Of a DNA stretch of 64,000 nt, positions 1,654 to 60,756 are shown piece after piece; the stretch's first letter is position 1; every line of letters starts with the position of its first letter. A program made the translations under genes and the position numbers. The DNA lies in the NCBI GenBank assembly GCA_012295275.1, contig CM022667.1, positions 14,012,001 to 14,076,000 on the forward strand, in the 5' to 3' direction. A model generated the notes under the pieces. The model was not told the DNA's origin. It saw only the letters and a program-made list of their open reading frames with translations, and made no database searches. The stretch is from Chrysomallon squamiferum. Lineage: Eukaryota > Animalia > Mollusca.

Positions 1654-1721
1654 ATGAGATTATTGTTCGTTCTCTGCATTATGTTTGGTAAAATTTAATT
1701 TCTCATTATTGTCAAATCTCT

Positions 1722-1782
<61 letters not shown>

Positions 1783-2248
1783 TGAATGTATGTCTTTATT
1801 TTTTTTTAAATGAATATTTATGGTCGTTTCAGTTTCATTTTCAGTAATATTATAGTTTAATGCTAATTCTTTCAAAATTTAATATTGAATGCTTTGACGT
1901 TTACTATAAAGGATGTAACAGAAATGTTTGGTAACTGTGTGTATGTGTGTGTGTGTGTGTGTGTGCGTGTGCGTTTTTGTTTTGTACGTATAACTGCGGA
2001 CAGATACCGGTACACGCACGCCTGACGCCAAATGTTCATATAACGTCAATAAGATTTTTACAAACTGGTAATTCTGTTACATGATATGTTCTAATGACAT
2101 TTTTGAAAAACTGCAGCTATAAAACATTGTTTATTTCAGTAACAATACACTCGGGATTTTGTAAATGTGATGTTCCGACAGTGAAAAATTGCATCCGTGA
2201 ATTCCTGAGGAAAAACACAGAACTGAAGAGAAAAGTGGAGAAATGCAG
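1654..2248 (+). pseudogene. Six-Cys GPI-type family, type A copy A1, exons 1-2 only (3' truncated)
   Basis: Exon 1 1654-1687 and exon 2 2140-2248 have intact GT/AG sites and encode MRLLFVLCIMFVTIHSGFCKCDVPTVKNCIREFLRKNTELKRKVEKC. Intron 2 homology to complete A copies stops near 2555, just before the exon 3 acceptor. Confidence 0.75.
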
Positions 2249-2677: not shown

Positions 2678-3050
2678 GTTCATGTTAATGCTGACGATTA
2701 TTAAGAATTAAGTGAACCCTACTATCAACTTGTTATAGAGAGGAAAATAAATACTACCTGCATTTCAAATGACAAGAACAGGCAATGGAAAGCAAGAGAA
2801 AAATCAGTTTTGTGAAGAATACTCTCTAAATAGTTTTTGAACATATAACAATTCAGACAAAAAAGAAGATTTTAAAACATTTTTGTATCTGTTATTGAAT
2901 TAATTTTATTGGATCAAGTGAACCTTAATACGAGCTTGCTATAGACAGATTTGGATGTGGATTCAAATAATATATTCGCGATCATCATTTTGAACAAATA
3001 GAATGAATCAACATTTAACAAAACGTCTGCGTCTAAACCTCAAGGACAGC
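2678..3050. pseudogene. Rearranged remnant of a family member: inverted intron-4 pieces fused to a frameshifted last exon
   Basis: 2678-2740 and 2912-2948 resemble 44972-45040 (intron 4 of minus-strand gene C). 2955-3001 is a plus-strand last exon with a 2-nt insertion (corrected: MWIQIIFAIIILNK*), followed by 3'UTR-like sequence. Repeated near 10915-11290. Confidence 0.6.
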
Positions 3051-5211: not shown

Positions 5212-6165
5212 ATGAAATTACTGTTCCCTCTCTGCATTCTGTCAGGTAAAATTTAATTTCTTATTATATTTAAATATTTTTCTTTCACAGACACATGCAT
5301 ACATACTGAAGAAAAATATTACTGTTTATGTGTTATTAGTACTATTATTATTAATTGTCATATACCTACTATATATAAAGACAAAACTGTAGACTTAGCA
5401 TGTTTCATTCAGCAGTAGTACATTAACGTATGCATTTATTTTTGAAACATGATTATTTACAGTTTTTAATTTCATTTTCTGTAATATTTTAGTTTAATGC
5501 TAATTCTTTTGCCATTCACCAGATATTCATTCATATAACGCCAATAAGAAAACTTAATAATAAACTGCTAATTCTGTTACATGGTATGTTGTAACGACAT
5601 TTTTGAATACATTGTTTATTTCAGTAATAATACACATGGCTTTTTGCGAATGTGATACTGACGCAGCGAAAACGTGCAGAATTGAATTCTTGCACGAAGT
5701 CGATAGTGCAAAGCGCAAAGCTGATAAATGCCGGTATGTTCGTACGAAAATAAGCTATATAGATTTTCTATTTTTTTTTTTTTTTTTTTTGTTGTTGTTG
5801 TTGTTGTTGTTGTTGTTCTTTTATTTATTTATTTATTTATTTATTATTATTTTTTACGTATCACTTATTTATTCAGTAATTAACTGATTAATATTGCTTT
5901 TTGTATTGTCAAGATTATATACATTTCCTTCATTCGCAATCACTGTCATAAACCAAACTGTTTTTACTTTAATTGAATATTTTTGCCATATAACTAATAA
6001 TAATAAATGTTCTATACTTCAGCATAGCACAGAAAATGATGAACTGTTTCATAGAAACCAACTGTTTTAATAACCAAACCAAGACTGGTGAAATACCAGC
6101 CCTGAAAAAAGTACTGAAGGAGAACTGCGGTACGTTTTCTTCACATGTTAAACACCAACGTTTTC

Positions 6166-6200
<35 letters not shown>

Positions 6201-6299
6201 AATAATATTAATAATAATAATTAAAATAGTAATAATAGTAATAACAATAATTAATACATCTACATATATATGTATATACATACATATATATGTATGTAT

Positions 6300-6333
<34 letters not shown>

Positions 6334-7009
6334 GAGCTATCTCTGTGTCTCTGTCTCTGTAATAATATTACAGGTGGTGTCATTGTCCCACGCGCTGCAC
6401 ATAGCAGAGGTAAGTGATTCTTAAGTACATTAATAGCAGGATTCTTGTTTAGAATTGTAATTATGTGTAAGTATGTAAAATTACTACTTTTAAAACGTTT
6501 AAACGTTGCTATTTCGTCTGCGGGAAAATCATCTCAATATGTACAATATATTCCCTAACGACTGTTTTGTTTCTCGAGACGAATCTGTAATAATAACAAT
6601 AATAATATGGCGATGTAATCTTAAGATCCAAATTTATTATCAGAAGATTAGATGTAACAAGGCAAATCATCACTTGTACTGTTATTGATTCACTTTATGT
6701 AAAAATACGGTCTACGCCGGTTTTTTTATTTTATTTCAGCTTCGAGCTTCTCATTTATATTTCTGTCGATCGATTAGAGAACTTCTATTATCATAAGATT
6801 AGTATTTCTCTGAACGCCTGTTAGATTTTTTGTTTCTGCACCAATCAGCTGAAATATGTGTGCATGCTAACAAATATATGTTAATATTCAAAATGAATTA
6901 CCAAATATTTGTCGATTCAATTTGTTTTACAGCTGAGCACCAGACACGCAGATCTCTGTTGTCGATGTGGATTGGAATAGTGATCTCGTTCGTGATTTTA
7001 AGCAAATAG
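5212..7009 (+). CDS. Six-Cys, predicted GPI-anchored surface protein, type B copy B1 (120 aa)
   Basis: Exons 5212-5245, 5625-5733, 6023-6129, 6374-6409, 6933-7009, all GT-AG and in frame: MKLLFPLCILSVIIHMAFCECDTDAAKTCRIEFLHEVDSAKRKADKCRIAQKMMNCFIETNCFNNQTKTGEIPALKKVLKENCGGVIVPRAAHSRAEHQTRRSLLSMWIGIVISFVILSK*. AATAAA at 7067. Confidence 0.88.
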
Positions 7010-8869: not shown

Positions 8870-9610
8870 CTTGACTTATGAGACGTGTTTAATTTGTTCC
8901 GAGTCCTTTCTCAATTTGCTCGTATATCAAATCAGTTTTCCAACTGAAATTAATTGAAATACCATTAATCCGTTCCAGCCCTCTCAAAAACCACATATTG
9001 TTAACAAAATAAAATAAATAAATAAATAAATAATAATAAAAAAAAAACTAAATAAAAGAGAATGTAAAGAAATAAACTGGTTTTGTAAAGTGTATTTATC
9101 TCGGAGATCAGACAATTTATTTTAACGCCATAGGCTGGACTTACAGCCTTTTGTCGACTCCTTCTGCTTCAGCATGGTACATATCGTAGAAGTACTACGC
9201 TCGTAATACCTAGCCAAGTCGACAACATGTACACCTCGCTCATGTTTTTCTATGAATTCAATCTTTAATTCAATGGACATCATCCGCTTCTTCTTCTCAG
9301 CACTGTCCTTTCCACTGACTTTCTTAGGATCTGTGGCCAGAAAATAGAGATTTGGCAGAATACTGCATTAAATGGACCACAACACAGCAGAGATGCTTCC
9401 GTGGCGAGGTAACCACGCCAAGCAAACGAACGAGGCTAGGGGTGCTGTCCGCATGTTACGTTGATTGTTGCGCCAACTAGCGGCGGCGTATCTGAAGCTC
9501 GCTCGTTACTCGGATTTTGGCTCGCAACTCAAAGCAAAAGATCGACAGGGTGACTGCTCTTAACTCGAAAAACACGTAAGTTGGGGCACTCTTAAGTCGA
9601 GGTACCACTG
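8870..9610 (-). mobile_element. Tigger/pogo-type non-autonomous transposon, copy T2 (~740 bp)
   Basis: Right end GTCGAGGTACCACTG|TA, decayed left end cttgacttatg, and the same HTH-coding fragment as T1. Confidence 0.8.
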
Positions 9611-9931: not shown

Positions 9932-9999
9932 ATGAGATTATTGTTCGTTCTCTGCATTATGTTTGGTAAAATTTAATTTCTCATTATTGTCAAATCTCT

Positions 10000-10040
<41 letters not shown>

Positions 10041-10498
10041 TGAATGTATGTCTTTATTTTTTTTTAAATGAATATTTATGGTCGTTTCAGTTTCATTTTC
10101 AGTAATATTATAGTTTAATGCTAATTCTTTCAAAATTTAATATTGAATGCTTTGACGTTTACTATAAAGGATGTAACAGAAATGTTTGGTAACTGTGTGT
10201 ATGTGTGTGTGTGTGTGCGTGCGTGTGCGTTTGTACGTATAACTGCGGACAGATACCGGTACACGCACGCACTGACGCCAAATGTTCATATAACGTCAAT
10301 AACATTTTTACAAACTGGTAATTCTGTTACATGATATGTTCTAATGACATTTTTGAAAAACTGCAGCTATAAAACATTGTTTATTTCAGTAACAATACAC
10401 TCGGGATTTTGTAAATGTGATGTTCCGACAGTGAAAAATTGCATCCGTGAATTCCTGAGGAAAAACACAGAACTGAAGAGAAAAGTGGAGAAATGCAG
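9932..10498 (+). pseudogene. Type A copy A2, exons 1-2 only; putative promoter region deleted
   Basis: Exons 9932-9965 and 10390-10498 encode the same sequence as A1 with the same 3' truncation. About 630 bp present upstream of A1 (approx. 805-1440, including the CRE-like motif) is missing at about 9712. Confidence 0.75.
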
Positions 10499-12095
10499 GT
10501 ATGTTCGTACATAAATAAACTATAGTAGGTTTTTATTTATGCTTGTATTTACTGATTGATTGATTGGTTGATTCATTCATTGATTTATTTATATATTTTT
10601 TATATATCATTTATTTATTTCGTAATTAATTGATTAGTATTGTTTTTGTAGATATTATACATATACTTATTATTTATATTTTGTTTACATATACATACAT
10701 ACATACATACATATATACACTTGAAAACAAAAATGTCATTCATTCGCACTCACCGTTATAAACCAAATGGTTTTCATTTTAACTCAATGTTTTTGTCGTA
10801 TATAAAAAAAATAAAAATAAATAAATAATAAATAAATAAATAATTAAAACTGAAACTAAACCTTAAATAAAATGTAATAAAATAAAATAAAATAAAATAA
10901 AATAAATATTTGGTGGTTCATGTTAATGCTGACGATTATTAAGAATTAAGTGAACCCTACTATCAACTTGTTATAGAGAGGAAAATAAATACTACCTGCA
11001 TTTCAAATGACAAGAACAGGCAATGGAAAGCAAGAGAAAAATCAGTTTTGTGAAGAATACTCTCTAAATAGTTTTTGAACATATAACAATTCAGACAAAA
11101 AAGAAGATTTTAAAACATTTTTGTATCTGTTATTGAATTAATTTTATTGGATCAAGTGAACCTTAATACGAGCTTGCTATAGACAGATTTGGATGTGGAT
11201 TCAAATAATATATTCGCGATCATCATTTTGAACAAATAGAATGAATCGACATTTAACAAAACGTCTGCGTCTAAACCTCAAGGACAGCTTTTGTTAATAA
11301 AAAAATAAAAAATAAATAAATAAATACATTAAATTAAATTAAATTTAAAAACAAATAATAATAATTAGCTTATTCTCTATGTTTAAAAATAAATTAATGC
11401 TACTTTTTATCAGCACTGGGTATAGTGTTATTTTAAAAAAGTTGTTACAAGACCTTTCATCATGTAAACTGCTGAATCATCCATTTTAGTCACTTGAAAT
11501 AGAACACGAGCATATGTGCAGTTTAAGGACTGTTGGAATAAAGGTGAATACTTTCATCAATCTATCTATTTATTTGTCTAGTTTTTTTTTCTGTCACATT
11601 TTCGTCTTCTTCTTCTTCTTCTTCTTCTTATTATTTTATCCTCCTTGAACATGATCAACACCTATCATGCTTGGTGCAGTAATCTCACAGAGTTGTTTGA
11701 TAATGTCAGAATCTATCGTTTTCAGACTCCGCCATCTTTGCTACAAGCTTCGTCCCACGCATATTTACTCAAAAATTCATTAAATAGTTGAATAAATGAG
11801 CTTTTACAATATGTCAGTAAAACATTAAAAATGTTCGAGCCTTTTCCAAGAAATAACTGGCTAAAATTTCATCCGGATTTCACAGCGCAGAAAGCAAATT
11901 AAATTACGTGTACAGAACTCGTTAGATTTCTTTGCACGTAACAATACCTGGTTTTCAGTAGACACAGCTCGGCCATGTCCGCTCAAAATATCGATCAGGC
12001 GCGTGAAAGCTTCGAAATAGCTCACAGTTTCAGAAATTCATAAAAAAAACAAAAACAGAAAACAAAATATCAAAACAAAAACAACAACAGATAAC

Positions 12096-13445: not shown

Positions 13446-15234
13446 ATGAAATTACTGTTCCCTCTCTGCATTCTGTCAGGTAAAATTTAATTTCTTATTA
13501 TATTTAAATATTTTTCTTTCACAGACACATGCATTACATACTGAAGAAAAAAATATTACTGTTTATGTGTTATTAGTACTATTATTATTAATTGTCATAT
13601 ACCTACTATATATAAAGACAAAACTGTAGACTTAGCATGTTTCATTCAGCAGTAGTACATTAACGTATGCATTTATTTTTTGAAACATGATTATTTACAG
13701 TTTTTAATTTCATTTTCTGTAATATTTTAGTTTAATGCTAATTCTTTGCCATTCACCAGATATTCATTCATATAACGCCAATAAGAAAACTTAATAATAA
13801 ACTGCTAATTCTGTTACATGGTATGTTGTAACGACATTTTTGAATACATTGTTTATTTCAGTAATAATACACATGGCTTTTTGCGAATGTGATACTGACG
13901 CAGCGAAAACGTGCAGAATTGAATTCTTGCACGAAGTCGATAGTGCAAAGCGCAAAGCTGATAAATGCCGGTATGTTCGTACGAAAATAAGCTATATAGA
14001 TTTTCTATTTTTTTTTTTTTTTTTTTTTTTTTTTTGTTGTTGTTGTTGTTCTTTTATTTATTTATTTATTTATTTATTATTATTTTTTACGTATCACTTA
14101 TTTATTCAGTAATTAACTGATTAATATTGCTTTTTGTATTGTCAAGATTATATACATTTCCTTCATTCGCAATCACTGTCATAAACCAAACTGTTTTTAC
14201 TTTAATTGAATATTTTTGCCATATAACTAATAATAATAAATGTTCTATACTTCAGCATAGCACAGAAAATGATGAGCTGTTTCATAGAAACCAACTGTTT
14301 TAATAACCAAACCAAGACTGGTGAAATACCAGCCCTGAAAAAAGTACTGAAGGAGAACTGCGGTACGTTTTCTTCACGTGTTAAACACCAACGTTTTCAC
14401 AACAACAACAACAACAATAATATTAATAATAATAATTAAAATAGTAATAATAGTAATAACAATAATTAATACATCTACATATATATGTATATACATATAT
14501 ATATATGTATGTATATACATACATATATATATATATATATATGAGCTATCTCTGTGTCTCTGTCTCTGTAATAATATTACAGGTGGTGTCATTGTCTCAC
14601 GCGCTGCACATAGCAGAGGTAAGTGATTCTTAAGTACATTAATAGCAGGATTCTTGTTTAGAATTGTAATTATGTGTAAGTATGTAAAATTTCTACTTTC
14701 ACTATTGAAACCAATAAAACGTTTAAACGTTGCTATTTCGTCTGCGGGAAAATCATCTCAATATGTACAATATATTCCCTAACGACTGTTTTGTTTCTCG
14801 AGACGAATCTGTAATAATAACAATAATAATATGGCGATGTAATCTTAAGATCCAAATTTATTATCAGAAGATTAGATGTAACAAGGCAAATCATCACTTG
14901 TACTGTTATTGATTCACTTTATGTAAAAATACCGTCTACGCCGGGTTTTTTTATTTTATTTCAGCTTCGAGCTTCTCATTTATATTTCTGTCGATCGATT
15001 AGAGAACTTCTATTATCATAAGATTAGTATTTTTCTGAACGCCTGTTAGATTTTTTGTTTCTGCACCAATCAGCTGAAATATGTGTGCATGCTAACAAAT
15101 ATATGTTAATATTCAAAATGAATTACCAAATATTTGTCGATTCAATTTGTTTTACAGCTGAGCACCAGACACGCAGATCTCTGTTGTCGATGTGGATTGG
15201 AATAGTGATCTCGTTCGTGATTTTAAGCAAATAG
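13446..15234 (+). CDS. Six-Cys GPI-type protein, type B copy B2 (120 aa)
   Basis: Exons 13446-13479, 13862-13970, 14256-14362, 14583-14618, 15158-15234. Differs from B1 by N->S (MMSC) and P->S (VIVSR). Confidence 0.88.
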
Positions 15235-17121: not shown

Positions 17122-17862
17122 CTTGACTTACGCGACGTGTTTAATTTATTCCGAGCTCCTATCTCAATTTGCTCGTATATCAAATTAGTTTTCCAACTGA
17201 AATTAATTGAAATACCATTAATCCGTTCCAGCCCTCTCAAAAACCATATATTGATAACAAAATAAAATAAATAAATAAAAAAAAAAAAAAAAAAAAAAAA
17301 TAAATAAAAGAGAATGTAAAGAAATAAACTGGTTTTGTAAAGTGTATTTATCTCGGAGATCAGACAAATTATTTTAACGCCATTGGCGGGACTTACAGCC
17401 TTTTGTCGACTCCTTCTGCTTCAGCATGGTACATATCGTAGAAGTACTACGCTCGTAATGCCTAGCCAAGTCGACTACATGTACACCTCGCTCATGTTTT
17501 TCTATGAATTCAATCTTTAATTCAATGGACATCATCCGCTTCTTCTTCTCAGCACTGTCCTTTCCACTGACTTTCTTAGGATTTGTGGCCAGAAAATAGA
17601 GATTTGGCAGAATACTGCATTAAATGGACCACAACACAGCAGAGATGCTTTCGCGGCCAGGTAACCACGCCAAGTAAACGAACGAGGCTAGGGATGCTGT
17701 CCGCATGTTACGTTGATTGTTGCGCCAACTAGCGGCGGCGTATCTGAAGCTCGCTCGTTACTCGGATTTTGGCTCGCAACTCAAAGCAAAAGATCGACAG
17801 GGCGACTGCTCTTAACTCGAAAAACACGTAAGTTGGGGCACTCTTAAGTCGAGGTACCACTG
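17122..17862 (-). mobile_element. Tigger/pogo-type remnant, copy T3
   Basis: Same termini and HTH fragment as T2. Confidence 0.8.
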
Positions 17863-18876: not shown

Positions 18877-19986
18877 ATGAGATTGTTGTTCGCTCTCTGC
18901 ATTATGTCTGGTAAAATTTAATTTCTCATCATTGTCAAATCTCTTTCTTTCCCACACACACACTCCCACACACACACAAACACACAGACTGAATGTATGT
19001 CTTTATTTTTTGTAAATGAATATTTATAGTCGTTTCAGTTTCATTTTCAGTAATATTATAGTTTAATGCTAATTCTTTCAAAATGTAATATTGAATGCTT
19101 TGACGTTTACTATAAAGGATGTAACAGAAATGTTTGGTAACTGTGTGTATGTGTGTGTGTGTGTGCGTGCGTGTGTGTTTGTACGTATAACTGCGGACAG
19201 ATACCGGTACACGCACGCACTGACGCCAAATGTTCATATAACGTCAATAAGATTTTTACAAACTGGTAATTCTGTTACATGATATGTTCTAATGACATTT
19301 TTGAAAAACTGCAGCTATAATACATTGTTTATTTCAGTAACAATACACTCGGGATTTTGTAAATGTGATGTTCCGACAGTGAAAAATTGCATCCGTGAAT
19401 TCCTGAGGAAAAACACAGAACTGAAGAGAAGACTGGAGAAATGCAGGTATGTTCGTACATAAATAAACTATAGTAGATTTTTATTTATGTTTGTATTTAC
19501 TGATTGACTGATTGGTTGATTGATTGATTGATTGATTTATATATTTTTTATATATCATTTATTTATTTCGTAATTAATTGATTAGTATTGTTTTTGTAGA
19601 TATTATACTTATTATTTATATTTTGTTCACATATATATATATATATATACACTTCAAAACAAAAATTTCATTCATTCGCAGTCACTGTTATAAACCAAAT
19701 TGTTTTCCTTTTAACTGAATGTTTTTGTCGTATAAATAATAATAGTAATAAATTTACTATACTTCAGCAATGTAAAGACTATGATAAGCTGTGCGAAAAA
19801 AACAGATTGTGTTGATTACCCTAGCAAGGTCTATACTATGGAACAACTGGAAAAAGCAGAGAAGGAAAACTGCAGTATGTTTACCTGTATACACAAGGAT
19901 TCTTCACATGTTAAACACGAACGTTTTCACAATAATCATAATAATAATAATAACAATAATAATAATAGTAATGATATATATATATG

Positions 19987-20046
<60 letters not shown>

Positions 20047-20636
20047 ATGTATGATACGTTAGTAATACATTAGTAATAATATTACAGTTACTAATAAGGA
20101 TTCGAGTCACGAACATAGCAAAGGTAAGTAATTTTTAAGCAGGGTTCTTGTTTATGTATGCTTAAGTATGTAAAATTACTACTTTCAATTAGTATATTCC
20201 CTAACGATTTTTTTGTTTGTCGAGACGAATCTGTAATAATAATAATAATAATAATATGGCGATGTAATCTTAAGGTCCAAATTTATTATCAGAAGATTAG
20301 ATGTAACAAGGAAAATCATCACTTGTACTATTACTGATTCACTTTATGTAAAAATACGTCTACCCCGTTTTTTATTTCAACTTCGAATCTTGTAATTTTT
20401 ATTTCTGTCGATCGATTAGAGTCATCCTGATAACACTGGATTAGCCTGTTAGGTTCTTGTTTCTGCACTAGTCAGTTGAAGTGTGTGTACTTAGTAACAA
20501 ATATATGTTAATACTGAAAATGCACTACGAAATATTCATTGAATCAATTTGTTTTTCAGGTGAGCACCAGACACGTAGATCTCTGTTCTCGATCTTGATT
20601 GGAATAATGATCTGTTTCATCATTTTAAGCAACTAG
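18877..20636 (+). CDS. Six-Cys GPI-type protein, type A copy A3 (120 aa)
   Basis: Exons 18877-18910, 19338-19446, 19768-19874, 20088-20123, 20560-20636: MRLLFALCIMSVTIHSGFCKCDVPTVKNCIREFLRKNTELKRRLEKCSNVKTMISCAKKTDCVDYPSKVYTMEQLEKAEKENCITNKDSSHEHSKGEHQTRRSLFSILIGIMICFIILSN*. Confidence 0.88.
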
Positions 20637-22676: not shown

Positions 22677-23238
22677 TAAATGAAAGAGAATGTAAAGAAA
22701 TAAACTGGTTTTGTAAAGTGTATTTATCTCGGAGATCAGACAAATTATTTTAACGCCATTGGCTGGACTTACAGCCTTTTGTCGACTCCTTCTGCTTCAG
22801 CATGGTACATATCGTAGAAGTACTACGTTCGTAATGCCTAGCCAAGTCGACAACATGTACACCTCGCTCATGTTTTTCTATGAATTCAATCTTTAATTCA
22901 ATGGACATCATCCGCTTCTTCTTCTCAGCACTGTCCTTTCCACTGACTTTCTTAGGATCTGTGGCCAGAAAATAGAGATTTGGCAGAATACTGCACTAAA
23001 TGGACCACAGCACAGCAGAGATGCTTCCGCGGCGAGGTAACCACGCCAAGTAAACGAACGAGGCTAGGGGTGCTGTCCGCATGTTACGTTGATTGTTGCG
23101 CCAACTAGCGGCGGCGTATCTGAAGCTCGCTCGTTACTCGGATTTTGGCTCGCAACTCAAAGCAAAAGATCGACAGGGCGACTGCTCTTAACTCGAAAAA
23201 CACGTAAGTTGGGGCACTCTTAAGTCGAGGTACCACTG
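22499..23238 (-). mobile_element. Tigger/pogo-type remnant, copy T4
   Basis: Same termini and HTH fragment. Shares diagnostic variants with T1 (aaatgaaagag, tactacgttcg). Confidence 0.8.
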
Positions 23239-24228: not shown

Positions 24229-24296
24229 ATGAGATTATTGTTCGTTCTCTGCATTATGTCTGGTAAAATTTAATTTCTCATTATTGTCAAATCTCT

Positions 24297-24357
<61 letters not shown>

Positions 24358-24817
24358 TGAATGTATGTCTTTATTTTTTTTTAAATGAATATTTATGGTC
24401 GTTTCAGTTTCATTTTCAGTAATATTATAGTTTAATGCTAATTCTTTCAAAATTTAATATTGAATGCTTTGACGTTTACTATAAAGGATGTAACAGAAAT
24501 GTTTGGTAACTGTGTGTATGTGTGTGTGTGTGTGTGCGTGCGTGTGCGTTTGTACGTATAACTGCGGACAGATACCGGTACACGCACGCACTGACGCCAA
24601 ATGTTCATATAACGTCAATAAGATTTTTACAAACTGGTAATTCTGTTACATGATATGTTCTAATGACATTTTTGAAAAACTGCAGCTATAAAACATTGTT
24701 TATTTCAGTAACAATACACTCGGGATTTTGTAAATGTGATGTTCCGACAGTGAAAAATTGCATCCGTGAATTCCTGAGGAAAAACACAGAACTGAAGAGA
24801 AAAGTGGAGAAATGCAG
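24229..24817 (+). pseudogene. Type A copy A4, exons 1-2 followed by the assembly gap (probably truncated like A1/A2)
   Basis: Exons 24229-24262 and 24709-24817 are intact. Sequence after the gap resumes in B-upstream DNA equivalent to about 4207. Confidence 0.65.
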
Positions 24818-25004: not shown

Positions 25005-25204
25005 NNNNNNNNNNNNNNNNNNNNNNNNNNNNNNNNNNNNNNNNNNNNNNNNNNNNNNNNNNNNNNNNNNNNNNNNNNNNNNNNNNNNNNNNNNNNNNNN
25101 NNNNNNNNNNNNNNNNNNNNNNNNNNNNNNNNNNNNNNNNNNNNNNNNNNNNNNNNNNNNNNNNNNNNNNNNNNNNNNNNNNNNNNNNNNNNNNNNNNNN
25201 NNNN
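25005..25204. other. Assembly gap (200 N)
   Basis: Run of exactly 200 n, a placeholder length. Confidence 0.99.
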
Positions 25205-26197: not shown

Positions 26198-27146
26198 ATG
26201 AAATTACTGTTCCCTCTCTGCATTCTGTCAGGTAAAATTTAAATTCTTATTATATTTAAATATTTTTCTTTCACAGTAACACGCATACATACTGAAGAAA
26301 AATATTACTGTTTATGTGTTATTAGTACTATTATTATTAATTGTCATATACCTACTATATATAAAGACAAAACTGTAGACTTAGCATGTTTCATTCAGCA
26401 GTAGTACATTAACGTATGCATTTATTTTTGAAACATGATTATTTACAGTTTTTAATTTCATTTTCTGTAATATTTTAGTTTAATGCTAATTCTTTGCCAT
26501 TCACCAGATATTCATTCATATAACGCCAATAAGAAAACTTAATAATAAACTGCTAATTCTGTTACATGGTATGTTGTAACGACATTTTTGAATACATTGT
26601 TTATTTCAGTAATAATACACATGGCTTTTTGCGAATGTGATACTGACGCAGCGAAAACGTGCAGAATTGAATTCTTGCACGAAGTCGATAGTGCAAAGCG
26701 CAAAGCTGATAAATGCCGGTATGTTCGTACGAAAATAAGCTATATAGATTTTCTATTTTTTTTTTTTTTTTTTTTGTTGTTGTTGTTGTTGTTGTTGTTA
26801 TTTTTTTATTTATTTATTTATTTATTATTATTTTTTACGTATCACTTATTTATTCAGTAATTAACTGATTAATATTGCTTTTTGTATTGTCAAGATTATA
26901 TACATTTCCTTCATTCGCAATCACTGTCATAAACCAAACTGTTTTTACTTTAATTGAATATTTTTGCCATATAACTAATAATAATAAATGTTCTATACTT
27001 CAGCATAGCACAGAAAATGATGAGCTGTTTGATAGAAACCAACTGTTTTAATAACCAAACCAAGACTGGTGAAATACCAGCCCTGAAAAAAGTACTGAAG
27101 GAGAACTGCGGTACGTTTTCTTCACGTGTTAAACACCAACGTTTTC

Positions 27147-27181
<35 letters not shown>

Positions 27182-27994
27182 AATATTAATAATAATAATT
27201 AAAATAGTAATAATAGTAATAACAATAATTAATACATCTACATATATATGTATATACATATATATATACGTATGTATATACATGCATATATATATATATA
27301 TATGAGCTATCTCTGTGTCTCTGTCTCTGTAATAATATTACAGGTGGTGTCATTGTCCCACGCGCTGCACATAGCAGAGGTAAGTGATTCTTAAGTACAT
27401 TAATAGCAGGATTCTTGTTTAGAATTGTAATTATGTGTAAGTATGTAAAATTTCTACTTTCACTATTGAAACCAATAAAACGTTTAAACGTTGCTATTTC
27501 GTCTGCGGGAAAATCATCTCAATATGTACAATATATTCCCTAACGACTGTTTTGTTTCTCGAGACGAATCTGTAATAATAACAATAATAATATGGCGATG
27601 TAATCTTAAGATCCAAATTTATTATCAGAAGATTAGATGTAACAAGGCAAATCATCACTTGTACTGTTATTGATTCACTTTATGTAAAAATACGGTCTAC
27701 GCCGGTTTTTTTATTTTATTTCAGCTTCGAGCTTCTCATTTATATTTCTGTCGATCGATTAGAGAACTTCTATTATCATAAGATTAGTATTTCTCTGAAC
27801 GCCTGTTAGATTTTTTGTTTCTGCACCAATCAGCTGAAATATGTGTGCATGCTAACAAATATATGTTAATATTCAAAATGAATTACCAAATATTTGTCGA
27901 TTCAATTTGTTTTACAGCTGAGCACCAGACACGCAGATCTCTGTTGTCGATGTGGATTGGAATAGTGATCTCGTTCGTGATTTTAAGCAAATAG
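26198..27994 (+). CDS. Six-Cys GPI-type protein, type B copy B3 (120 aa)
   Basis: Exons 26198-26231, 26610-26718, 27004-27110, 27344-27379, 27918-27994. Carries the MMSCLIETNC variant. Confidence 0.88.
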
Positions 27995-31332: not shown

Positions 31333-32438
31333 ATGAGATTGTTGTTCGCTCTCTGCATTATGTCTGGTAAAATTTAATTTCTCATCATTGTCAAATCTCT
31401 TTCTTTCCCACACACACTCCCACACACACACAAACACACAGACTGAATGTATGTCTTTATTTTTTGTAAATGAATATTTATAGTCGTTTCAGTTTCATTT
31501 TCAGTAATATTATAGTTTAATGCTAATTCTTTCAAAATGTAATATTGAATGCTTTGACGTTTACTATAAAGGATGTAACAGAAATGTTTGGTAACTGTGT
31601 GTATGTGTGTGTGTGTGTGCGCGTGCGTGTGTGTTTGTACGTATAACTGCGGACAGATACCGGTACACGCACGCACTGACGCCAAATGTTCATATAACGT
31701 CAATAAGATTTTTACAAACTGGTAATTCTGTTACATGATATGTTCTAATGACATTTTTGAAAAACTGCAGCTATAATACATTGTTTATTTCAGTAACAAT
31801 ACACTCGGGATTTTGTAAATGTGATGTTCCGACAGTGAAAAATTGCATCCGTGAATTCCTGAGGAAAAACACAGAACTGAAGAGAAGACTGGAGAAATGC
31901 AGGTATGTTCGTACATAAATAAACTATAGTAGATTTTTATTTATGTTTGTATTTACTGATTGACTGATTGGTTGATTGATTGATTGATTGATTTATATAT
32001 TTTTTATATATCATTTATTTATTTCGTAATTAATTGATTAGTATTGTTTTTGTAGATATTATACTTATTATTTATATTTTGTTCACATATATATATATAT
32101 ACACTTCAAAACAAAAATGTCATTCATTCGCAGTCACTGTTATAAACCAAATTGTTTTCCTTTTAACTGAATGTTTTTGTTGTATAAATAATAATAGTAA
32201 TAAATTTACTATACTTCAGCAATGTAAAGACTATGATAAGCTGTGCGAAAAAAACAGATTGTGTTTATTACCCTAGCAAGGTCTATACTATGGAACAACT
32301 GGAAAAAGCAGAGAAGGAAAACTGCAGTATGTTTACCTGTATACACAAGGATTCTTCACATGTTAAACACGAACTTTTTCACAATAATCATAATCATAAT
32401 AATGACAATAATAATAATAGTAATGATATATATATATG

Positions 32439-32525
<87 letters not shown>

Positions 32526-33128
32526 GTATGATACGTTAGTAATACATTACTAATAATATTACAGTTACTAATAAGGATTCGAGTGATGAACATAGCAAAG
32601 GTAAGTAATTTTTAAGCAGGGTTCTTGTTTATGTATGCTTAAGTATGTAAAATTGCTACTTTCAATTACTATATTCCCTAACGATTGTTTTGCTTGTCGA
32701 GACGAATCTGTAATAATAATAATAATAATCATAATAATAATAATAATATGGCGATGTAATCTTAAGGTCCAAATTTATTATCAGAAGATTAGATGTAACA
32801 AGGAAAATCATCACGTGTATTGTTACTGATTCACTTTATGTAAAAATACGTCTACGCCGTTTTTTATTTCAACTTCGAATCTTGTAATTTTTATTTCTGT
32901 CGATTGATTAGAGTCATCCTGATAACACTGGATTAGCCTGTTAGATTCTTGTTTCTGCACTAGTCAGTTGAAGTGTGTGTACTTAGTAACAAATATATGT
33001 TAATACTGAAAATGCACTACGAAATATTTATTGAATCAATTTGTTTTTCAGGTGAGCACCAGACACGTAGATCTCTGTTCTCGATCTTGATTGGAATAAT
33101 GATCTGTTTCATCATTTTAAGCAACTAG
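31333..33128 (+). CDS. Six-Cys GPI-type protein, type A copy A5 (120 aa)
   Basis: Exons 31333-31366, 31794-31902, 32220-32326, 32565-32600, 33052-33128. Differs from A3 by D->Y (CVYYP) and H->D (SSDEH). Confidence 0.88.
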
Positions 33129-36588: not shown

Positions 36589-36656
36589 ATGAGATTATTG
36601 TTCGCTCTCTGCATTATGTCTGGTAAAATTTAATTTCTCATTATTGTCAAATCTCT

Positions 36657-36697
<41 letters not shown>

Positions 36698-37655
36698 ACA
36701 CTGAACGTATGTCTTTATTTTTTGTAAATGAATATTTATAGTCGTTTCAGTTTCATTTTCAGTAATATTATAGTTTAATGCTAATTCTTTCAAAATTTAA
36801 TATTGAATGCTTTGACGTTTACTATAAAGGATGTAACAGAAATGTTTGGTAACTGTGTGTATGTGTGTGTGTGTGTGCGTGCGTGTGTGTTTCTACGTAT
36901 AACTGCGGACAGATACCGGTACACGCACGCACTGACGCCAAATGTTCATATAACGTCAATAAGATTTTTACAAACTGGTAATTCTGTTACATGATATGTT
37001 CTAATGACATTTTTGAAAAACTGCAGCTATAATACCTTGTTTATTTCAGTAACAATACACTTGGGTTTTTGTAAATGTGATCTTCCGTCAGTGAAAAATT
37101 GCATCCGTGAATTCCTGAGGAAAAACACAGAACTGAAGAGAAAAGTGGAGAAATGCAGGTATGTTCGTACATAAATAAACTATAGTAGGTTTTTATTTAT
37201 GCTTGTATTTACTGATTGATTGATTGGTTGATTCATTCATTGATTTATTTATATATTTTTTATATATCATTTATTGATTTCGTAATTAATTGATTAGTAT
37301 TGTTTTTGTAGATATTATACATATACTTATTATTTATATTTTGTTTACATATACATACATACATACATACATATATACACTTGAAAACAAAAATGTCATT
37401 CATTCGCACTCACCGTTATAAACCAAATGGTTTTCATTTTAACTGAATGTTTTTGTCGTATAAATAATAATAATACATTTACTATACTTCAGCAATGTAA
37501 AGACTATAATAAGTTGTGCGAAAAAACACGGTTGTGCTGATTACCCTAGCAAGTTGTATAGTAAGGAAAGATTGAAAGAAATAGAGAAGGAAAACTGCAG
37601 TATGTTTACCTGTATACACAAGGATTCTTCACATGTTAAACACGAACGTTTTCAC

Positions 37656-37714
<59 letters not shown>

Positions 37715-38394
37715 TAACACTAATAATAATAATAGTAATAATAATAATAATAATAGTAATGATATATATATATGAGCTCTCTCTCTCTCTCTCTCTCACT
37801 CATGTATGATACGCTAGTAATACATTAGTGATAATATTACAGTGCCTAATAATGATCTGAGTGCCGCACGTAGCAAAGGTAAGTGATTTTTAAGCAGGGT
37901 TCTTGTTTAGAATTTTAATTATGCTTAAGTATGTAAAATTACTACTTTCAATTACTATATTCCCAAAACGATTGTTTTGCTTTTCGAGACGAATCTGTAA
38001 TAATAATAATAATATGGCGATGTAATCTTAAGGTCCAAATTTATTATCAAAAGATTAGATGTAACAAGGAAAATCATCACTTGTACTGTTACTGATTCAC
38101 TTTATGTAAAAATATGTCTCTGCCGTTTTTTATTTCAACTTCGAATCTTGTAATTTTTATTTCTGTCGATCGATTAGAGTCATCCTGATAACACTGGATT
38201 AGCCTGTTAGGTTCTTGTTTCTGCACTAGTCAGTTGAAGTGTGTGTACTTAGTAACAAATATATGTTAATACTGAAAATACACTACCAAATATTTATTGA
38301 ATCAATTTGTTTTTCAGGTGAGCACCAGACACGCAGATCTCTGTTCTCGATCTGGATTGGAATAATGATCTGTTTCATCATTTTAAGCAACTAG
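36589..38394 (+). CDS. Six-Cys GPI-type protein, type A copy A6 (120 aa)
   Basis: Exons 36589-36622, 37050-37158, 37493-37599, 37843-37878, 38318-38394: MRLLFALCIMSVTIHLGFCKCDLPSVKNCIREFLRKNTELKRKVEKCSNVKTIISCAKKHGCADYPSKLYSKERLKEIEKENCMPNNDLSAARSKGEHQTRRSLFSIWIGIMICFIILSN*. Confidence 0.88.
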
Positions 38395-40595: not shown

Positions 40596-40663
40596 ATGAG
40601 ATTATTGTTCGCTCTCTGCATGATGTCTGGTAAAATTTAATTTCTCATTATTGTCAAATCTCT

Positions 40664-40730
<67 letters not shown>

Positions 40731-41669
40731 AGACTGAATGTATGTCTTTATTTTTTTTAAATGAATATTTATAGTCGTTTGAGTTTCATTTTCAGTAATA
40801 TTATAGTTTAATGCTAATTCTTTCAAAATTTAATATTGAATGCTTTGACGTTTACTATAAAGGATGTAACAGAAATGTTTGGTAACTCTGTGTATGTGTG
40901 TGTGTGTGTGCGTGCGTGCGTGTGTGTTTGTACGTATAACTGCACTGACGCCAAATGTTCATATAACGTCAATAAGATTTTTACAAACTGGTAATTCTGT
41001 TACATGATATGTTCTAACAACATTTTTGAAAAACTGCAGCTATAATACCTTGTTTATTTCAGTAACAATACACTTGGGTTTTTGTAAATGTGATATTCCG
41101 ACAGTGAGAGAGTGCCTCCGTGAATTTCTGAGGAAAGACACACAACTGAAGAGAAGACTGGAGAAATGCAGGTATGTTCGTACATAAATAAACTATAGTA
41201 GATTTTTATTTATGTTTGTATTTACTGATTGATTGATTGGTTGATTCATTCATTGATTTATTTATATATATTTTTATATATCATTTATTTATTTCGTAAT
41301 TAATTGATTAGTATTGTTTTTGTAGATATTATACATATACTTATTATTTATATTTTGTTTACATATACATACATACATACACACATATATACACTTGAAA
41401 ACAAAAATGTCATTCATTCGCACTCACCGTTATAAACCAAATGGTTTTCATTTTAACTGAATGTTTTTGTCGTATAAATAATAATAATAAATTTACTATA
41501 CTTCAGCAATGTAAAGTCTATGATAAGTTGTGCGAAAAAACACGGTTGTGCTCATTACCCTAGCAAGTTCTATAGTATGGAAAGATTGGAAGAAATAGAG
41601 AAGGGAAACTGCAGTATGTTTACCTGTATACACAAGGATTCTTCACATGTTAAACACGAACGTTTTCAC

Positions 41670-41760
<91 letters not shown>

Positions 41761-41779
41761 TATATATATATATATATCA

Positions 41780-41852
<73 letters not shown>

Positions 41853-42456
41853 ATGTATGATTCGCTAGTAATACATTAGTGATAATATTACAGTGCCTAT
41901 TAATGATCTGAGTGCCGCACGTAGCAAAGGTAAGTGATTTTTAAGCAGGGTTCTTGTTTAGAATTTTAATTATGCTTAAGTATGTAAAATTACTACTTTC
42001 AGTTACTATATTCCCTAACTATTGTTTTGTTTCTGGAGATGAATCTGTAATAATAATAATAATAATATGGCGATGTAATCTTAAGATCCAAATTTATTAT
42101 CAGAAGATTAGATGTAACAAGGAAAATCATCACGTGTACTATTATTGATTCACTTTATGTAAAAATATCGTTTTTTATTTCAACTTCGAATCTTCTCATT
42201 TTTATTTCTGTCGATCGATTAGGGGTCCTTCTGATATCATAAGATTAGTATTTCTCTGTACGCCTATTAGGTTCTTGGTTCTGCACTAATCAGCTGAAGG
42301 ATGTTTGCTCAGTAACAAGTATCTGTTAATATTCAAAAATGCATTACCAAGTATTTATTGATTTATTTTGTATTTTCAGGTGAGCACCAGACACGCAGAT
42401 CAGTGTTTTCGATGTGGATTGGAATAATGATCTCGTTCGTCATTTTAAACAATTAG
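40596..42456 (+). CDS. Six-Cys GPI-type protein, type A copy A7 (120 aa)
   Basis: Exons 40596-40629, 41063-41171, 41507-41613, 41894-41929, 42380-42456: MRLLFALCMMSVTIHLGFCKCDIPTVRECLREFLRKDTQLKRRLEKCSNVKSMISCAKKHGCAHYPSKFYSMERLEEIEKGNCMPINDLSAARSKGEHQTRRSVFSMWIGIMISFVILNN*. Confidence 0.88.
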
Positions 42457-43489: not shown

Positions 43490-44440
43490 ATAGGTACCTC
43501 TAGTTACTGTGTGTATGCTGGAAGCAGACGAATATACTGCTTGATGCAAAGTCCTAAAACACGTATGGCACTTGGGAACATATTAAACAACAGCATATGT
43601 TTGTTATCAAACACTGTGTTATATCCCAGATGTTCTGGCAATGATTTTATCTTGGAAGGAAACTGCAGAGACAGTTTTGTACTTCTAGCACGCACAGTTT
43701 CACGTGCATCGATGTACAGACTATCTGCAGTTATAGTACTAAATGCTCCAAGAGAGTCTAAGACCCTGGTTTTGTAGAGGATTCAGCATTTGTAAGTAAC
43801 ACCTACCAGAGAGAGGCCCCATACACAGTGCAAGCGTTTACATCTTATCGAAGACCTATAAAGTCGGAGCATGGCCTTTCGGTTTGCTCCCCATTTAATA
43901 CTGCCAATAACATTTAAAAGAGTGAAGGAGTTTAAGGCCTTTAGGATGCAGTACAAAGGGTAACTTCCTGTCAAATATAACGTTCACAAATTTGGCCTCT
44001 TCCACAATAGGACAGAATATGTCCAGAAACATATTTATATGGAGACCTGTTTTCTAGCAGATATAAATACTGACTGTCTTTGTCTTTTGTAATCTAAAGC
44101 TGTTTTCAGTTGCCCATTACTGAAGTTTATTCAGACCAATTTGAAGCTGTCATTCGATAATACTTACGTTGAACGATCTTTAGCAAATCTGAAAATCGTC
44201 GACATAAGGTTTTAATTAAAAAAAAAAAAAAAAAACATTATGCACAGGTTGCACCCATTTCTTGCGGGTTGGAATCTGAAAATGTAGATCCAACACTTTA
44301 AAAGATCTGTCTTAAAAAACATCTTTAAAAATAGGAAGGCCACCTCATAGATCATGAGCCTTGGAGTCAATAAGCCCATACTTCCATATAGTGTCGTAAG
44401 CTTTATTCAAATCAGAAAACACTGAAACTAGGTGTCGACT
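43490..44440 (-). mobile_element. Decayed non-LTR retrotransposon (LINE) ORF2 fragment
   Basis: Minus-strand pieces HLVSVFSDLNKAYDTIWKYG (RT motif FFDLEKAYDTTW type), YVDDFQIC, and WGANRKAMLRLYRSSIR, with many stops and frameshifts. Confidence 0.8.
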
Positions 44441-44859
44441 AGGTGTCGGTGGGGCACCATGGAAGATTTTACAAATTGCTTATTTTCATTTTCAAGTCAA
44501 TTTAATGGATTATATGGCTACAATATGTTGACGAAAGCTACCTAAAGATCAGAATTAACAAAAGCTGACATTGTCAAATATTACCAAAATTATAACCCCA
44601 GAACATAATCAAATAATAATAATAATAATAAAAAAAACTATTACTTATTGAAAAGCTTTGTAAGGTTTTCACAATACACAATAACAAATGCTGATAAACA
44701 GCAACATTAATTTATTTTTAAAAAGAATATATGTCCAAATTTATAATTATAGAGAATAAGTTAATTACATTTATTTAGTTGTTAATAAAATAAAAATAAT
44801 TCTTTTTGTAAGGTCCTTAACGGCTTGGACACAGACGTTTTGCTGAAGGTCGATTCTGT

Positions 44860-45288
44860 CTATTTCTTTAAGATAACGAGCACGATCATTATTCCAATCC
44901 ACATCGAGAAGAGACATATATGTACCTGGTGTTCACCTGCAAAACAAACATTAAATCAGTTAATATACAGCTGTTCATGTTAATGCTGACGCTTGCTGAC
45001 GATCAAGTGAACTTTAATATCAGCTTGCTATAGATAGAAAAGCCAGCACTACAGGCATGTCTAGGATAGACAATGGATATAAAGAGAAATATTAGACGTG
45101 TGATGTACCAGAATCTCTGCAACCCAACGTAATCAAGGTGGTATTGGCGTTCAGTATAACATGTTGAAAATTTCAAGAGACAGCAGTGTTTAATATACAA
45201 TTACCATAACTATGAGGATAACAAAACCAGTTTTAGAAAGAATCAAAGATGTTTTAAAAATATGTCGAGACATAATAATTGCTTTAAA

Positions 45289-45319
<31 letters not shown>

Positions 45320-46892
45320 GACTGTTGGTCGTAAATGCAGTTATACTAATTTTGAGATGATTTATGCTGTCCATGTGAAAATTAATTTAAATAAATGTGA
45401 TCTAGTAGAGAAAAGGCTGGAAACCAGAGCTTTAACCAGTCGATTGAAATTGAAATTAGGAAACATCGAATGCAACATTTATAACCCAACTGTTCCGATT
45501 ATGCACAAGGGAAATCGCACAAGCAGATACAACAAGAGCAGCAACAGCAGCAACAACAACAACAACAACAACAAAAACAACAATATTAATAATAATAATA
45601 TGTTTTTCAATACAAAATTATTTTTATAAACAGGTTGACAGTTTCTCGATTTTACTATTATGTCATCATTTATCATTATTAAGATTCTTGAAAGACAAGA
45701 ATAATTAGGAAGTAAACTTAATATACCTAGCTGACTTGTATATACAAGCAATGATAAGCTTTAAACCTATTCATAGACAACACTGTAACTTTTCATACAT
45801 AAAAACTATTCTGCAGCTAATACATGTAAAACATACCTTTACTCGACATCATAGAGATTTCGTCACCTCCTGCAATATTATTAGAAATTTATTACATATA
45901 TACATACTTGCAAACTCGCACACTCACGCACACAGTAATAGTATCATTAAACATATTACAGTTATCAAAGGCTGGTGTTCTGGTCAAATGTTAGGCTAAA
46001 CGTCTGGATTTTCTTGAAAGTCGTCTGCTATGAATTTAAACATTTTCATAGCTGAATTTTATTAAAGTTTTCATAACAATCTTCCCACAGAGACACTGAC
46101 AGAAGAAGTCACTGTGTACTGTTATGCTGTGTAAAATTGAAAGGTTTGCCTTATGGTATATTAATTTAAAGACTTTTGCTTTTTAAGCAGAAGTCTCTTT
46201 TGCAACATTTGTCTTGGAATGGAATAGCTATTTAATATTTTGCGCAAAATCATGTGGATTCGTATACTAAATCAGTGGAAACACTGTGTATATGTACAAA
46301 CATACCGCAGACACTAAACACGAAATGTTTCAGTTGTTTAAATTTATTTTTCGTCCTTTCATCATCTTCATCTTCAGAACAGGATGCTTTTACTAAACAG
46401 ACGAACAATTTATTTGAGTAACTGAAAGATAAGACTTATTTTCATTATTTATTTAACAACAGAAACATCAAGTTCATGAAATATAATTTTGGATTAAAGT
46501 AAAAACAAATAAGTGTGCTAATGTACGTATGAATGTATGTATTTGTATATGGTTTTATGTGTTTGTGTATGAACATTTTCATGATTTGCGAGCGTGTGAA
46601 AACGAACACCCCCCACACACACACACATACACACACACCTACGCAACAATAATTAAGTAAAATAAGCAAAATTTATCTGGAAGGTCTGAGATCAAGGATG
46701 ACTCTAATTTCAGGATCTTCTGGTTTTCCGGACAAAGTCTTAACAATTTTATTTAAACTATAATGCACAATCGTATCTAAATTTAAAGCCATTTTTTCTT
46801 TTTTTTTAATTTCCCTAATGCTGAACGGACATATTCTGGAACGTGTACGATAAAATAACAGAAAATATATAAATAATTTTTGAATTGGCAAA

Positions 46893-46923
<31 letters not shown>

Positions 46924-47513
46924 AAATAAATAAATAGAAGTAATTAAAAGTATTAAATTGAGTGATTTTGGTGCAAACTTACAAACATCGATTTGAGATG
47001 TGTAAAGAATTTGTATTTACATCCTGTTGAAAAGATTCCTGGCACCTGTTTACAGTTTCTTCATCACAATTTCCACAAAAAGCCAAGTTTATTGTTACTG
47101 AAATTGGCAAAAATGACGCTAGAACTGTGGAGTCCAGAAAATTCGATAAGCATATTTATATCATCTAATTAGAATTGTTACTGATATTATCAACTGAATG
47201 TGTGTGTGTGTGTGTGTTTTAACTGTACGTCAACACATTTGATACAAATGATAAGAATCAGGATACAATTATATTACAATCATTGAAATTATAAACTTAA
47301 CAGTTAGAATTAGAATTTTATATTGCATAAACTGGAAAGTAGATTTCATTAGTCTGTTGAGAATAATTGCTCGCTATATCACCACAGTACTTTGATTCTG
47401 CTGTTTGATAAAATATAATGTCACGGAAATGTAACTGTGTGTGTTTATGTTTAAAAGTAATACAAGAATAATACTTTACCTGAGAAAATACAGAGAGCGA
47501 ACAGATACTTCAT
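44860..47513 (-). CDS. Six-Cys GPI-type protein, divergent inverted type C (124 aa)
   Basis: Minus-strand exons 47513-47480, 47097-46983, 46421-46306, 45869-45837, 44936-44860, with the same phases 1-2-1-1: MKYLFALCIFSVTINLAFCGNCDEETVNRCQESFQQDVNTNSLHISNRCFYSNKLFVCLVKASCSEDEDDERTKNKFKQLKHFVFSVCGGDEISMMSSKGEHQVHICLFSMWIGIMIVLVILKK*. Confidence 0.87.

Positions 47514-50286: not shown

Positions 50287-60756
<10,470 letters not shown>

What the first reader, a model, noticed from the sequence alone, without database searches (positions are those of the whole stretch)
18877..20636. Cysteine scaffold resembles the RGM N-terminal domain / neuritin helical bundle
Seen: segments between cysteines look amphipathic-helical (NCIREFLRKNTELKRRLEKC, TMEQLEKAEKENC), with conserved C-x-x-E-F, C3-x8-C4 and a terminal N-C. 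Recalled knowledge (from memory, approximate): the BMP-binding N-terminal domain of RGM proteins is a three-helix bundle with six Cys, including a KCNSEF motif, C-x8-C spacing and a terminal HNC. Neuritin/CPG15 is a small GPI-anchored six-Cys protein with the same C3-x8-C4 spacing. Inference: these may be stand-alone, fast-evolving members of that fold, possibly ligand binders or decoys.
Basis: inference. Interest (0 to 1): 0.7.

Follow-up and report, generated by a model that had tools for sequence, protein, structure and literature searches.

The report
Fast-evolving snail cell-surface protein cluster
A likely snail genome holds a tandem cluster of spliced genes for small six-cysteine proteins, predicted to be helical and lipid-anchored on the cell surface, whose outer part changes faster than the introns; they likely share a fold with neuritin and RGM but lack RGM's growth-factor-binding loop, so they likely recognise some other, changing partner.

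Summary
The finding is one gene (A3) of an 11-copy tandem family (8 complete, 3 partial) in a gastropod-type genome. The gene has five coding exons; a 36-nt exon at 20088-20123 supplies a stalk and the likely GPI attachment site. The 120-aa product is signal peptide, six-Cys domain (spacing 7-17-8-5-20), stalk and hydrophobic tail. One RNA run shows exon-only cover and the exon 2-3 junction; its variants match copies A5, A6 and A7, not A3 itself. All six cysteines hold across paralogs only 14-34% identical in the domain. Ectodomain exons diverge up to four times faster than introns (A3/A6 13.1% vs 3.1%). Single-exon models are all-helical (low confidence), which fits a three-helix bundle. No profile, sequence or fold search linked either half to RGM_N, neuritin or DUF19, and the whole domain was not folded, so the decisive test is open. 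The RGD/RGN loop that RGMs need to bind BMP/GDF is absent in 8 of 8 proteins. Verdict: real and orphan; likely the RGM-N/neuritin-type fold (about 65%), not an RGM, unlikely a BMP decoy; most likely a diversifying surface-recognition family.

The parts
18877..18910 (+). A3 coding exon 1: start codon and first 11 residues of the signal peptide (phase-1 intron follows)
   Evidence: GT donor; homologous exon in all 11 copies; RNA loose end matches this exon
19338..19446 (+). A3 exon 2: end of signal peptide, Cys1-Cys3, predicted helices 23-36 and 38-46; phase-2 intron directly after the Cys3 codon
   Evidence: AG/GT; RNA cover and joint 19446>19768; model; phases
19768..19874 (+). A3 exon 3: Cys4-Cys6, predicted helices 50-60 and 72-80
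   Evidence: AG/GT; RNA cover; model
20088..20123 (+). A3 exon 4 (36 nt): hydrophilic stalk ending in the candidate GPI omega site Ser94
   Evidence: RNA loose end equals the A5 copy of this exon; present in all complete copies; omega candidate
20560..20636 (+). A3 exon 5: polar spacer, hydrophobic C-terminal tail, stop; AATAAA 67 and 77 nt downstream
1654..2248 (+). Partial copy A1 (exons 1-2 only), followed by a decayed terminal-exon remnant near 2918
5212..7009 (+). Complete paralog B1 (45% identical to A3)
9932..10498 (+). Partial copy A2 (exons 1-2 only), remnant near 11156
13446..15234 (+). Complete paralog B2
24229..24817 (+). Copy A4: exons 1-2, then an assembly gap (25005-25204); completeness unknown
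26198..27994 (+). Complete paralog B3
31333..33128 (+). Complete paralog A5 (98% identical to A3; its variants are the ones seen in RNA)
36589..38394 (+). Complete paralog A6 (80% identical to A3; exon-2 variants seen in RNA)
40596..42456 (+). Complete paralog A7 (72% identical to A3; exon-2 variants seen in RNA)
44860..47513 (-). Complete divergent paralog C (124 aa, 36% identical to A3, acidic domain), same five-exon plan

Best explanation
This is one member of a tandem family of five-exon genes for small six-cysteine proteins that are predicted to be GPI-anchored three-helix bundles (likely of the RGM-N/neuritin/DUF19 type) and that likely act as cell-surface recognition proteins for a changing partner other than BMP. 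Shown: gene structure, family, splicing of exon 2 to exon 3, fixed cysteines, fast ectodomain change. Predicted: the signal peptide is cut after residue 19, the tail is swapped for a GPI anchor at Ser94, and three disulfides (likely C1-C5, C2-C4, C3-C6, by analogy with RGM-N; pairing recalled) staple the helices on a 10-residue stalk. Inferred: duplication and selection on the exposed helix faces give paralogs with different surfaces (domain pI about 9 in A, 8.3 in B, 5.6 in C), as expected for binding microbial, gamete or non-self ligands.
For: Canonical AG/GT at every internal junction of 8 of 8 complete copies, all open. RNA run X1 covers exons only and joins 19446 to 19768 with GT..AG. Ser-x-Gly/Ala sits exactly 26 residues from the C-end in 8 of 8, ahead of a polar spacer and a hydrophobic tail. 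No strands in either exon model; helices at 23-36, 38-46, 50-60, 72-80. C3-x8-C4 equals hemojuvelin C80/C89, and the C4-to-C6 distance is 27-30 against 30 in hemojuvelin. Exons 2-4 differ at 33 of 252 sites against 31 of 1001 intron sites for A3/A6 (p 7.8e-9) and 37 of 252 against 51 of 889 for A3/A7 (p 1.2e-5). Among A copies dN/dS is 1.35-4.5 in the domain and 0.12-0.37 in signal and tail, where it can be computed.
Against: No whole-domain model or profile match; the single-exon models have mean pLDDT 60 and 69 and pTM about 0.3. dN exceeds dS in no pair significantly (p 0.13-0.47), A6/A7 exon versus intron is borderline (p 0.054), the pairs are not independent, and gene conversion could flatten the introns. 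Helices 2 and 3 are not significantly amphipathic. Spacing differs from RGM-N at C4-C5 (5 here; 7 in RGM, recalled) and C1-C2. No ligand, tissue or anchor data. A3's own variants were not seen in RNA or in the second run.
Confidence: 0.55

Rival explanations
1. Stand-alone RGM N-domain that binds BMP/TGF-beta ligands as a decoy or co-receptor.
For: Three helices and three disulfides define RGM-N (PMC7354924); cysteine spacing partly matches hemojuvelin; membrane anchoring strengthens RGM inhibition of GDF5.
Against: No RGD/RGN motif in 8 of 8; that loop, Leu103 and His106 are required for binding. The loop after Cys5 differs between subfamilies and exon 3 changes fast, which is unexpected for a conserved ligand. 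Hemojuvelin has no intron between codons 41 and 119 (c.122-c.356 run colinear with the genome), while this gene has one after Cys3.
Confidence: 0.08
2. Invertebrate neuritin-like trophic or adhesion protein: same fold and anchor, acting on the animal's own cells, with the array expanding by birth-and-death under relaxed rather than positive selection.
For: Same layout as neuritin: small, signal peptide, GPI (PMC12877949). Recalled and not verified: neuritin genes have a phase-2 intron right after Cys3, as here. dN>dS is not significant; partial copies show turnover.
Against: Neuritin is about 97% identical among human, mouse and rat and has a single paralogue, unlike this array. Non-synonymous sites exceed intron divergence in 3 of 3 A-type pairs (p 7.7e-9, 7.8e-6, 0.006), which relaxed selection alone does not give.
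Confidence: 0.2
3. Convergent lineage-specific scaffold: a small disulfide-braced helical protein unrelated to RGM-N or neuritin; the cysteine pattern is a generic outcome of stapling helices.
For: No relative in the 5.8-billion-cluster search (0 of 61 candidates; no candidate), one spurious hit among 1.84 billion representatives, no named Atlas family. Only part of the spacing matches.
Against: All searches used 35-40 residue halves and cannot see remote homologues. Cysteine count, x8 spacing, helix placement and the Phe four residues after Cys2 agree with the recalled RGM-N pattern.
Confidence: 0.25
4. A3 and some near-identical neighbours are haplotype or assembly duplicates, so the true family is smaller.
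For: A3/A5 and B1/B2/B3 are 98% identical; repeat units are 94-97% alike with a gap inside the array; A3-specific letters were not seen in either run.
Against: A5, A6 and A7 variants occur together in one RNA run; A, B and C types are only 33-45% identical. This affects the count, not the family.
Confidence: 0.15

Closest known systems
RGM N-terminal domain (RGMA/B, hemojuvelin; Pfam RGM_N PF06535, accession recalled)
   Same: Six cysteines, C3-x8-C4, C4-to-C6 distance 27-30 versus 30, predicted helices, GPI-type surface display.
   Different: No RGD/RGN loop, no C-terminal vWD-like domain, 120 aa against 426-478 aa, intron inside the domain, multi-copy and fast-changing.
Neuritin / CPG15 (NRN1, NRN1L; Pfam PF15056, accession recalled)
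   Same: Small single-domain protein with signal peptide and GPI signal. Six Cys, x8 spacing and an intron after Cys3 are recalled for neuritin, not verified.
   Different: Neuritin is highly conserved in vertebrates with one paralogue; no profile match from single exons.
DUF19 / T20D4.11-like proteins (Pfam PF01579)
   Same: Small secreted proteins in tandem clusters; 14 of 51 C. elegans members are infection-induced (clusters); one oyster protein carries the name. A helical cysteine-rich fold is recalled.
   Different: 140-220 aa and listed as secreted; no profile match from single exons.

Membership tests
RGM N-terminal domain | Bundle of three helices with three disulfides | tested here: inconclusive
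RGM N-terminal domain | Six cysteines with C3-x8-C4 and similar C4-to-C6 distance | tested here: met
   8 of 8 copies; hemojuvelin C80, C89, C119 from PMC6615163. Positions of RGM Cys1, Cys2 and Cys5 are recalled only.
RGM N-terminal domain | RGD/RGN loop with following Leu and His (BMP/GDF-binding site) | tested here: not met
   0 of 8 proteins; requirement from PMC7354924.
RGM N-terminal domain | Match to the Pfam RGM_N profile | tested here: inconclusive
   No row in 15 single-exon queries at E<=10; whole domain not scanned.
RGM family (full protein) | C-terminal vWD-like domain with GDPH site, 14 cysteines, over 400 aa | tested here: not met
   Products are 120-124 aa and end in the anchor signal; RGM layout from PMC6370684.
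RGM family (full protein) | N-domain core encoded without an internal intron (hemojuvelin) | tested here: not met
   Hemojuvelin c.122-c.356 colinear with genomic positions; here a phase-2 intron follows Cys3, confirmed by RNA.
Neuritin/CPG15 | Small protein with signal peptide and C-terminal GPI signal | tested here: met
   Predicted from hydropathy and an invariant omega candidate; neuritin layout from PMC12877949. No dedicated predictor was run.
Neuritin/CPG15 | Match to the Pfam NRN1 profile | tested here: inconclusive
   No row from single exons; whole domain not scanned.
Neuritin/CPG15 | Shared cysteine spacing and intron position after Cys3 | not testable with these tools
   No neuritin sequence or gene structure was retrievable (searches; papers not held); the neuritin side is recalled.
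DUF19 / T20D4.11-like | Match to the Pfam DUF19 profile or fold | tested here: inconclusive
   No row from single exons; whole domain not scanned or folded.

The most novel reading that the evidence does not exclude
RGM-N, neuritin and DUF19 are one ancient three-helix surface module, and this snail lineage has turned its minimal, single-domain GPI form into a positively selected recognition repertoire, for example for symbionts, pathogens or gametes, much as other animals use Ig or three-finger folds.
Probability: 0.2. Interest if true: 0.7.

Novelty: new variant of a known kind. Interest (0 to 1): 0.38.

Why it matters
If the fold is confirmed, it extends the RGM-N/neuritin module to a minimal, stand-alone, rapidly diversifying form in a mollusc and separates the scaffold from BMP binding. 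The genes are small, five-exon and absent from the protein collections searched, so such families are easy to miss in annotation. Lineage-specific arrays of small cysteine-braced surface proteins are, however, a familiar general pattern (DUF19 clusters), and no ligand is known.

Tried and rejected
A four-exon model was replaced after RNA showed a further exon; the first script had exon ends off by one. Homologue searches: exon-2 alignment, 0 of 61 candidates at E<=1 among proteins of 75-2000 aa; exon 3, no candidate among 45-146 aa; 1.84 billion representatives gave 1 hit, a leucine-rich-repeat-like protein with no shared layout, rejected. ESM Atlas: short unnamed clusters for exon 2, nothing for exon 3. 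PDB by sequence: 1 and 4 rows at E 0.26-5.7, all unrelated helices. Pfam rows below cut-off (Zn_ribbon_NOB1, CDC37_M, RM3_Med14, STT3, EED insertion) were rejected as chance. Fold searches with 35-residue models did not list RGM, which says little; the wide search for the exon-2 model was not run. RNA runs X3 and X4 gave no cover, which is no proof of absence. No related loci could be fetched (queries too short) and no genome is held. The dN/dS script stopped at the last pair; comparisons with copy C are saturated and were not used. No complex was predicted. Literature: ten searches listed no paper on such a gastropod family or on an RGM-N/neuritin/DUF19 link; the library lacks most subscription papers, and one search listed 25 of 1,097.

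Full report
Setting. The window is AT-rich animal DNA full of microsatellites. A transporter exon at 59082-59327 has its best relatives in gastropods (best 67%; 15 of the 16 hits with a species name are gastropods by my knowledge of those names, one a scallop), so the genome is likely a snail's. No whole genome is held.

Gene structure. The finding is a gene on the + strand. Exon searches in the window found 11 copies between 1.6 and 47.5 kb: A1-A7, B1-B3 and C on the minus strand. One RNA run of three (X1; only 19290-19925 was laid) covers exons 2 and 3 and none of the intron bins between them, and one contig joins 19446 to 19768 with GT..AG. A second contig carries the end of exon 2 ahead of exon 3 and runs on into a sequence found once in the window, at 32565. 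That revealed a 36-nt exon, present in all seven complete + copies and as 33 nt in C. With it, 8 of 8 complete copies have AG/GT at each internal junction and open frames of 120 aa (C: 124). Intron phases are 1, 2, 1, 1. RNA variants match A5, A6 and A7. At 19814 both covering runs show the A5 letter, so expression of A3 itself, and its distinctness from A5 (98% identical), are not shown. A1 and A2 have only exons 1-2, followed by a decayed terminal exon; A4 runs into a gap.

Protein anatomy. Hydrophobic N- and C-ends flank a polar middle. I read residues 1-19 as the signal peptide (inference; no predictor was run). Six cysteines follow, spaced 7-17-8-5-20 (C: 7-18-8-5-23). Only 2 of 58 other domain columns are invariant across A3, B1 and C. 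After a short stalk, Ser-x-Gly/Ala lies exactly 26 residues from the end in 8 of 8 proteins, followed by a polar spacer and a hydrophobic tail with no cytoplasmic part. By established GPI-signal rules (my knowledge) that is an omega site. AlphaFold on single exons gave helices at residues 23-36, 38-46, 50-60 and 72-80 and no strands, at pLDDT 60 and 69. If the two middle helices continue across the exon junction, that makes three helices (inference). Amphipathy was significant only for helix 1, in 3 of 4 proteins.

Evolution. Domain identity is 73-77% among divergent A copies, 28-34% between A and B and 14-20% to C, while signal and tail stay at 56-100% in the pairs computed. With simple repeats and gap-adjacent columns masked, exons 2-4 differ more than introns: A3/A6 33 of 252 vs 31 of 1001; A3/A7 37 of 252 vs 51 of 889; A6/A7 19 of 252 vs 42 of 939 (p 7.8e-9, 1.2e-5, 0.054). 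Non-synonymous sites exceed the intron rate in 3 of 3 pairs and synonymous sites in 0 of 3, but dN vs dS is not significant in any pair. This suggests positive selection without proving it: the pairs are not independent, masking may lower the intron figure, and conversion could homogenise introns.

Is it RGM-N or neuritin? RGM-N is three helices with three disulfides, and BMP2/GDF5 binding needs the RGD/RGN loop, Leu103 and His106 (PMC7354924, passages; its supplement with the alignment could not be read, and may bear on cysteine spacing). Hemojuvelin has C80, C89 and C119, with RGD at 98-100 (PMC6615163, table rows and passages). The x8 spacing matches and C4-to-C6 is 30 there against 27 (A, B) and 30 (C) here, but RG[DN] occurs in 0 of 8 proteins, the RGM C-terminal domain is absent (PMC6370684, passages), and hemojuvelin has no intron where this gene has one. 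Neuritin shares the small signal-plus-GPI layout but is highly conserved (PMC12877949 and PMC6502786, passages); its cysteine spacing and an intron after Cys3 are recalled only. DUF19 genes form clustered, partly infection-induced families in C. elegans, and one oyster protein bears the name (PMC3534327 one table, PMC8410859 passages, PMC10058639 one table row). PMC13234300 (passages) only confirms RGMA as a compact helical bundle. All database tests used single exons: Pfam, PDB sequences, large protein collections, ESM Atlas and folds. None named RGM_N, neuritin or DUF19, and none found a relative. Halves of 35 residues cannot show remote homology, so the fold question stays open; I put the shared fold at about 65%.

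Earlier notes of this scan (unchecked AI notes) describe an abalone protein of six RGM-like modules without the growth-factor residues, and similar small GPI-type arrays in other animals. I could not test them. They make the general type look common and lowered my novelty estimate.

Verdict. A real, spliced, orphan gene family of small, likely GPI-anchored, six-cysteine helical proteins with a fast-changing ectodomain. It likely works like a neuritin/RGM-N-type surface module but is not an RGM and is unlikely to bind BMP. Best reading: surface recognition of a changing partner (0.55). Interest 0.38.

Noticed in passing
window about 50300-60750, minus strand: Multi-exon SLC6/SNF (PF00209) sodium-dependent transporter gene, glycine/proline-transporter-like, closest to gastropod proteins.
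   Followed up: partly
window 2918-3000 and 11156-11240: Decayed copy of the family's terminal exon (acceptor lost, in-frame stop) behind the partial copies A1 and A2; trace of an older, lost paralog.
   Followed up: partly
window 17377-17619 minus, and copies near 200-420, 9140-9360, 22750-22995, 29900: Fragment resembling a Tigger/CENP-B-type transposase N-terminus (recalled), carried in the repeat units; Pfam gave no hit at E<=0.01. It may mark the duplication units.
   Followed up: partly
window 54350-55190: Minisatellite of roughly 21-nt units inside an intron of the transporter gene, with strong strand skew.
   Followed up: no
window about 43500-44500 and 50890-51070: Degenerate sequence that looks like non-LTR retroelement remains (by eye); Pfam blank for one piece.
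   Followed up: partly
window 18078 and eight homologous places: A conserved non-coding block lies upstream of most copies, and an AG precedes the start codon closely, suggesting an untranslated first exon; one 10-letter RNA loose end resembles it but has no exact match.
   Followed up: no
cysteine codons of all eight complete copies: Five of six cysteine codons are identical across A, B and C despite high synonymous divergence; reminiscent of conotoxin codon conservation (recalled), not tested for significance.
   Followed up: no
window 25005-25204: Assembly gap of 200 N inside the array.
   Followed up: no
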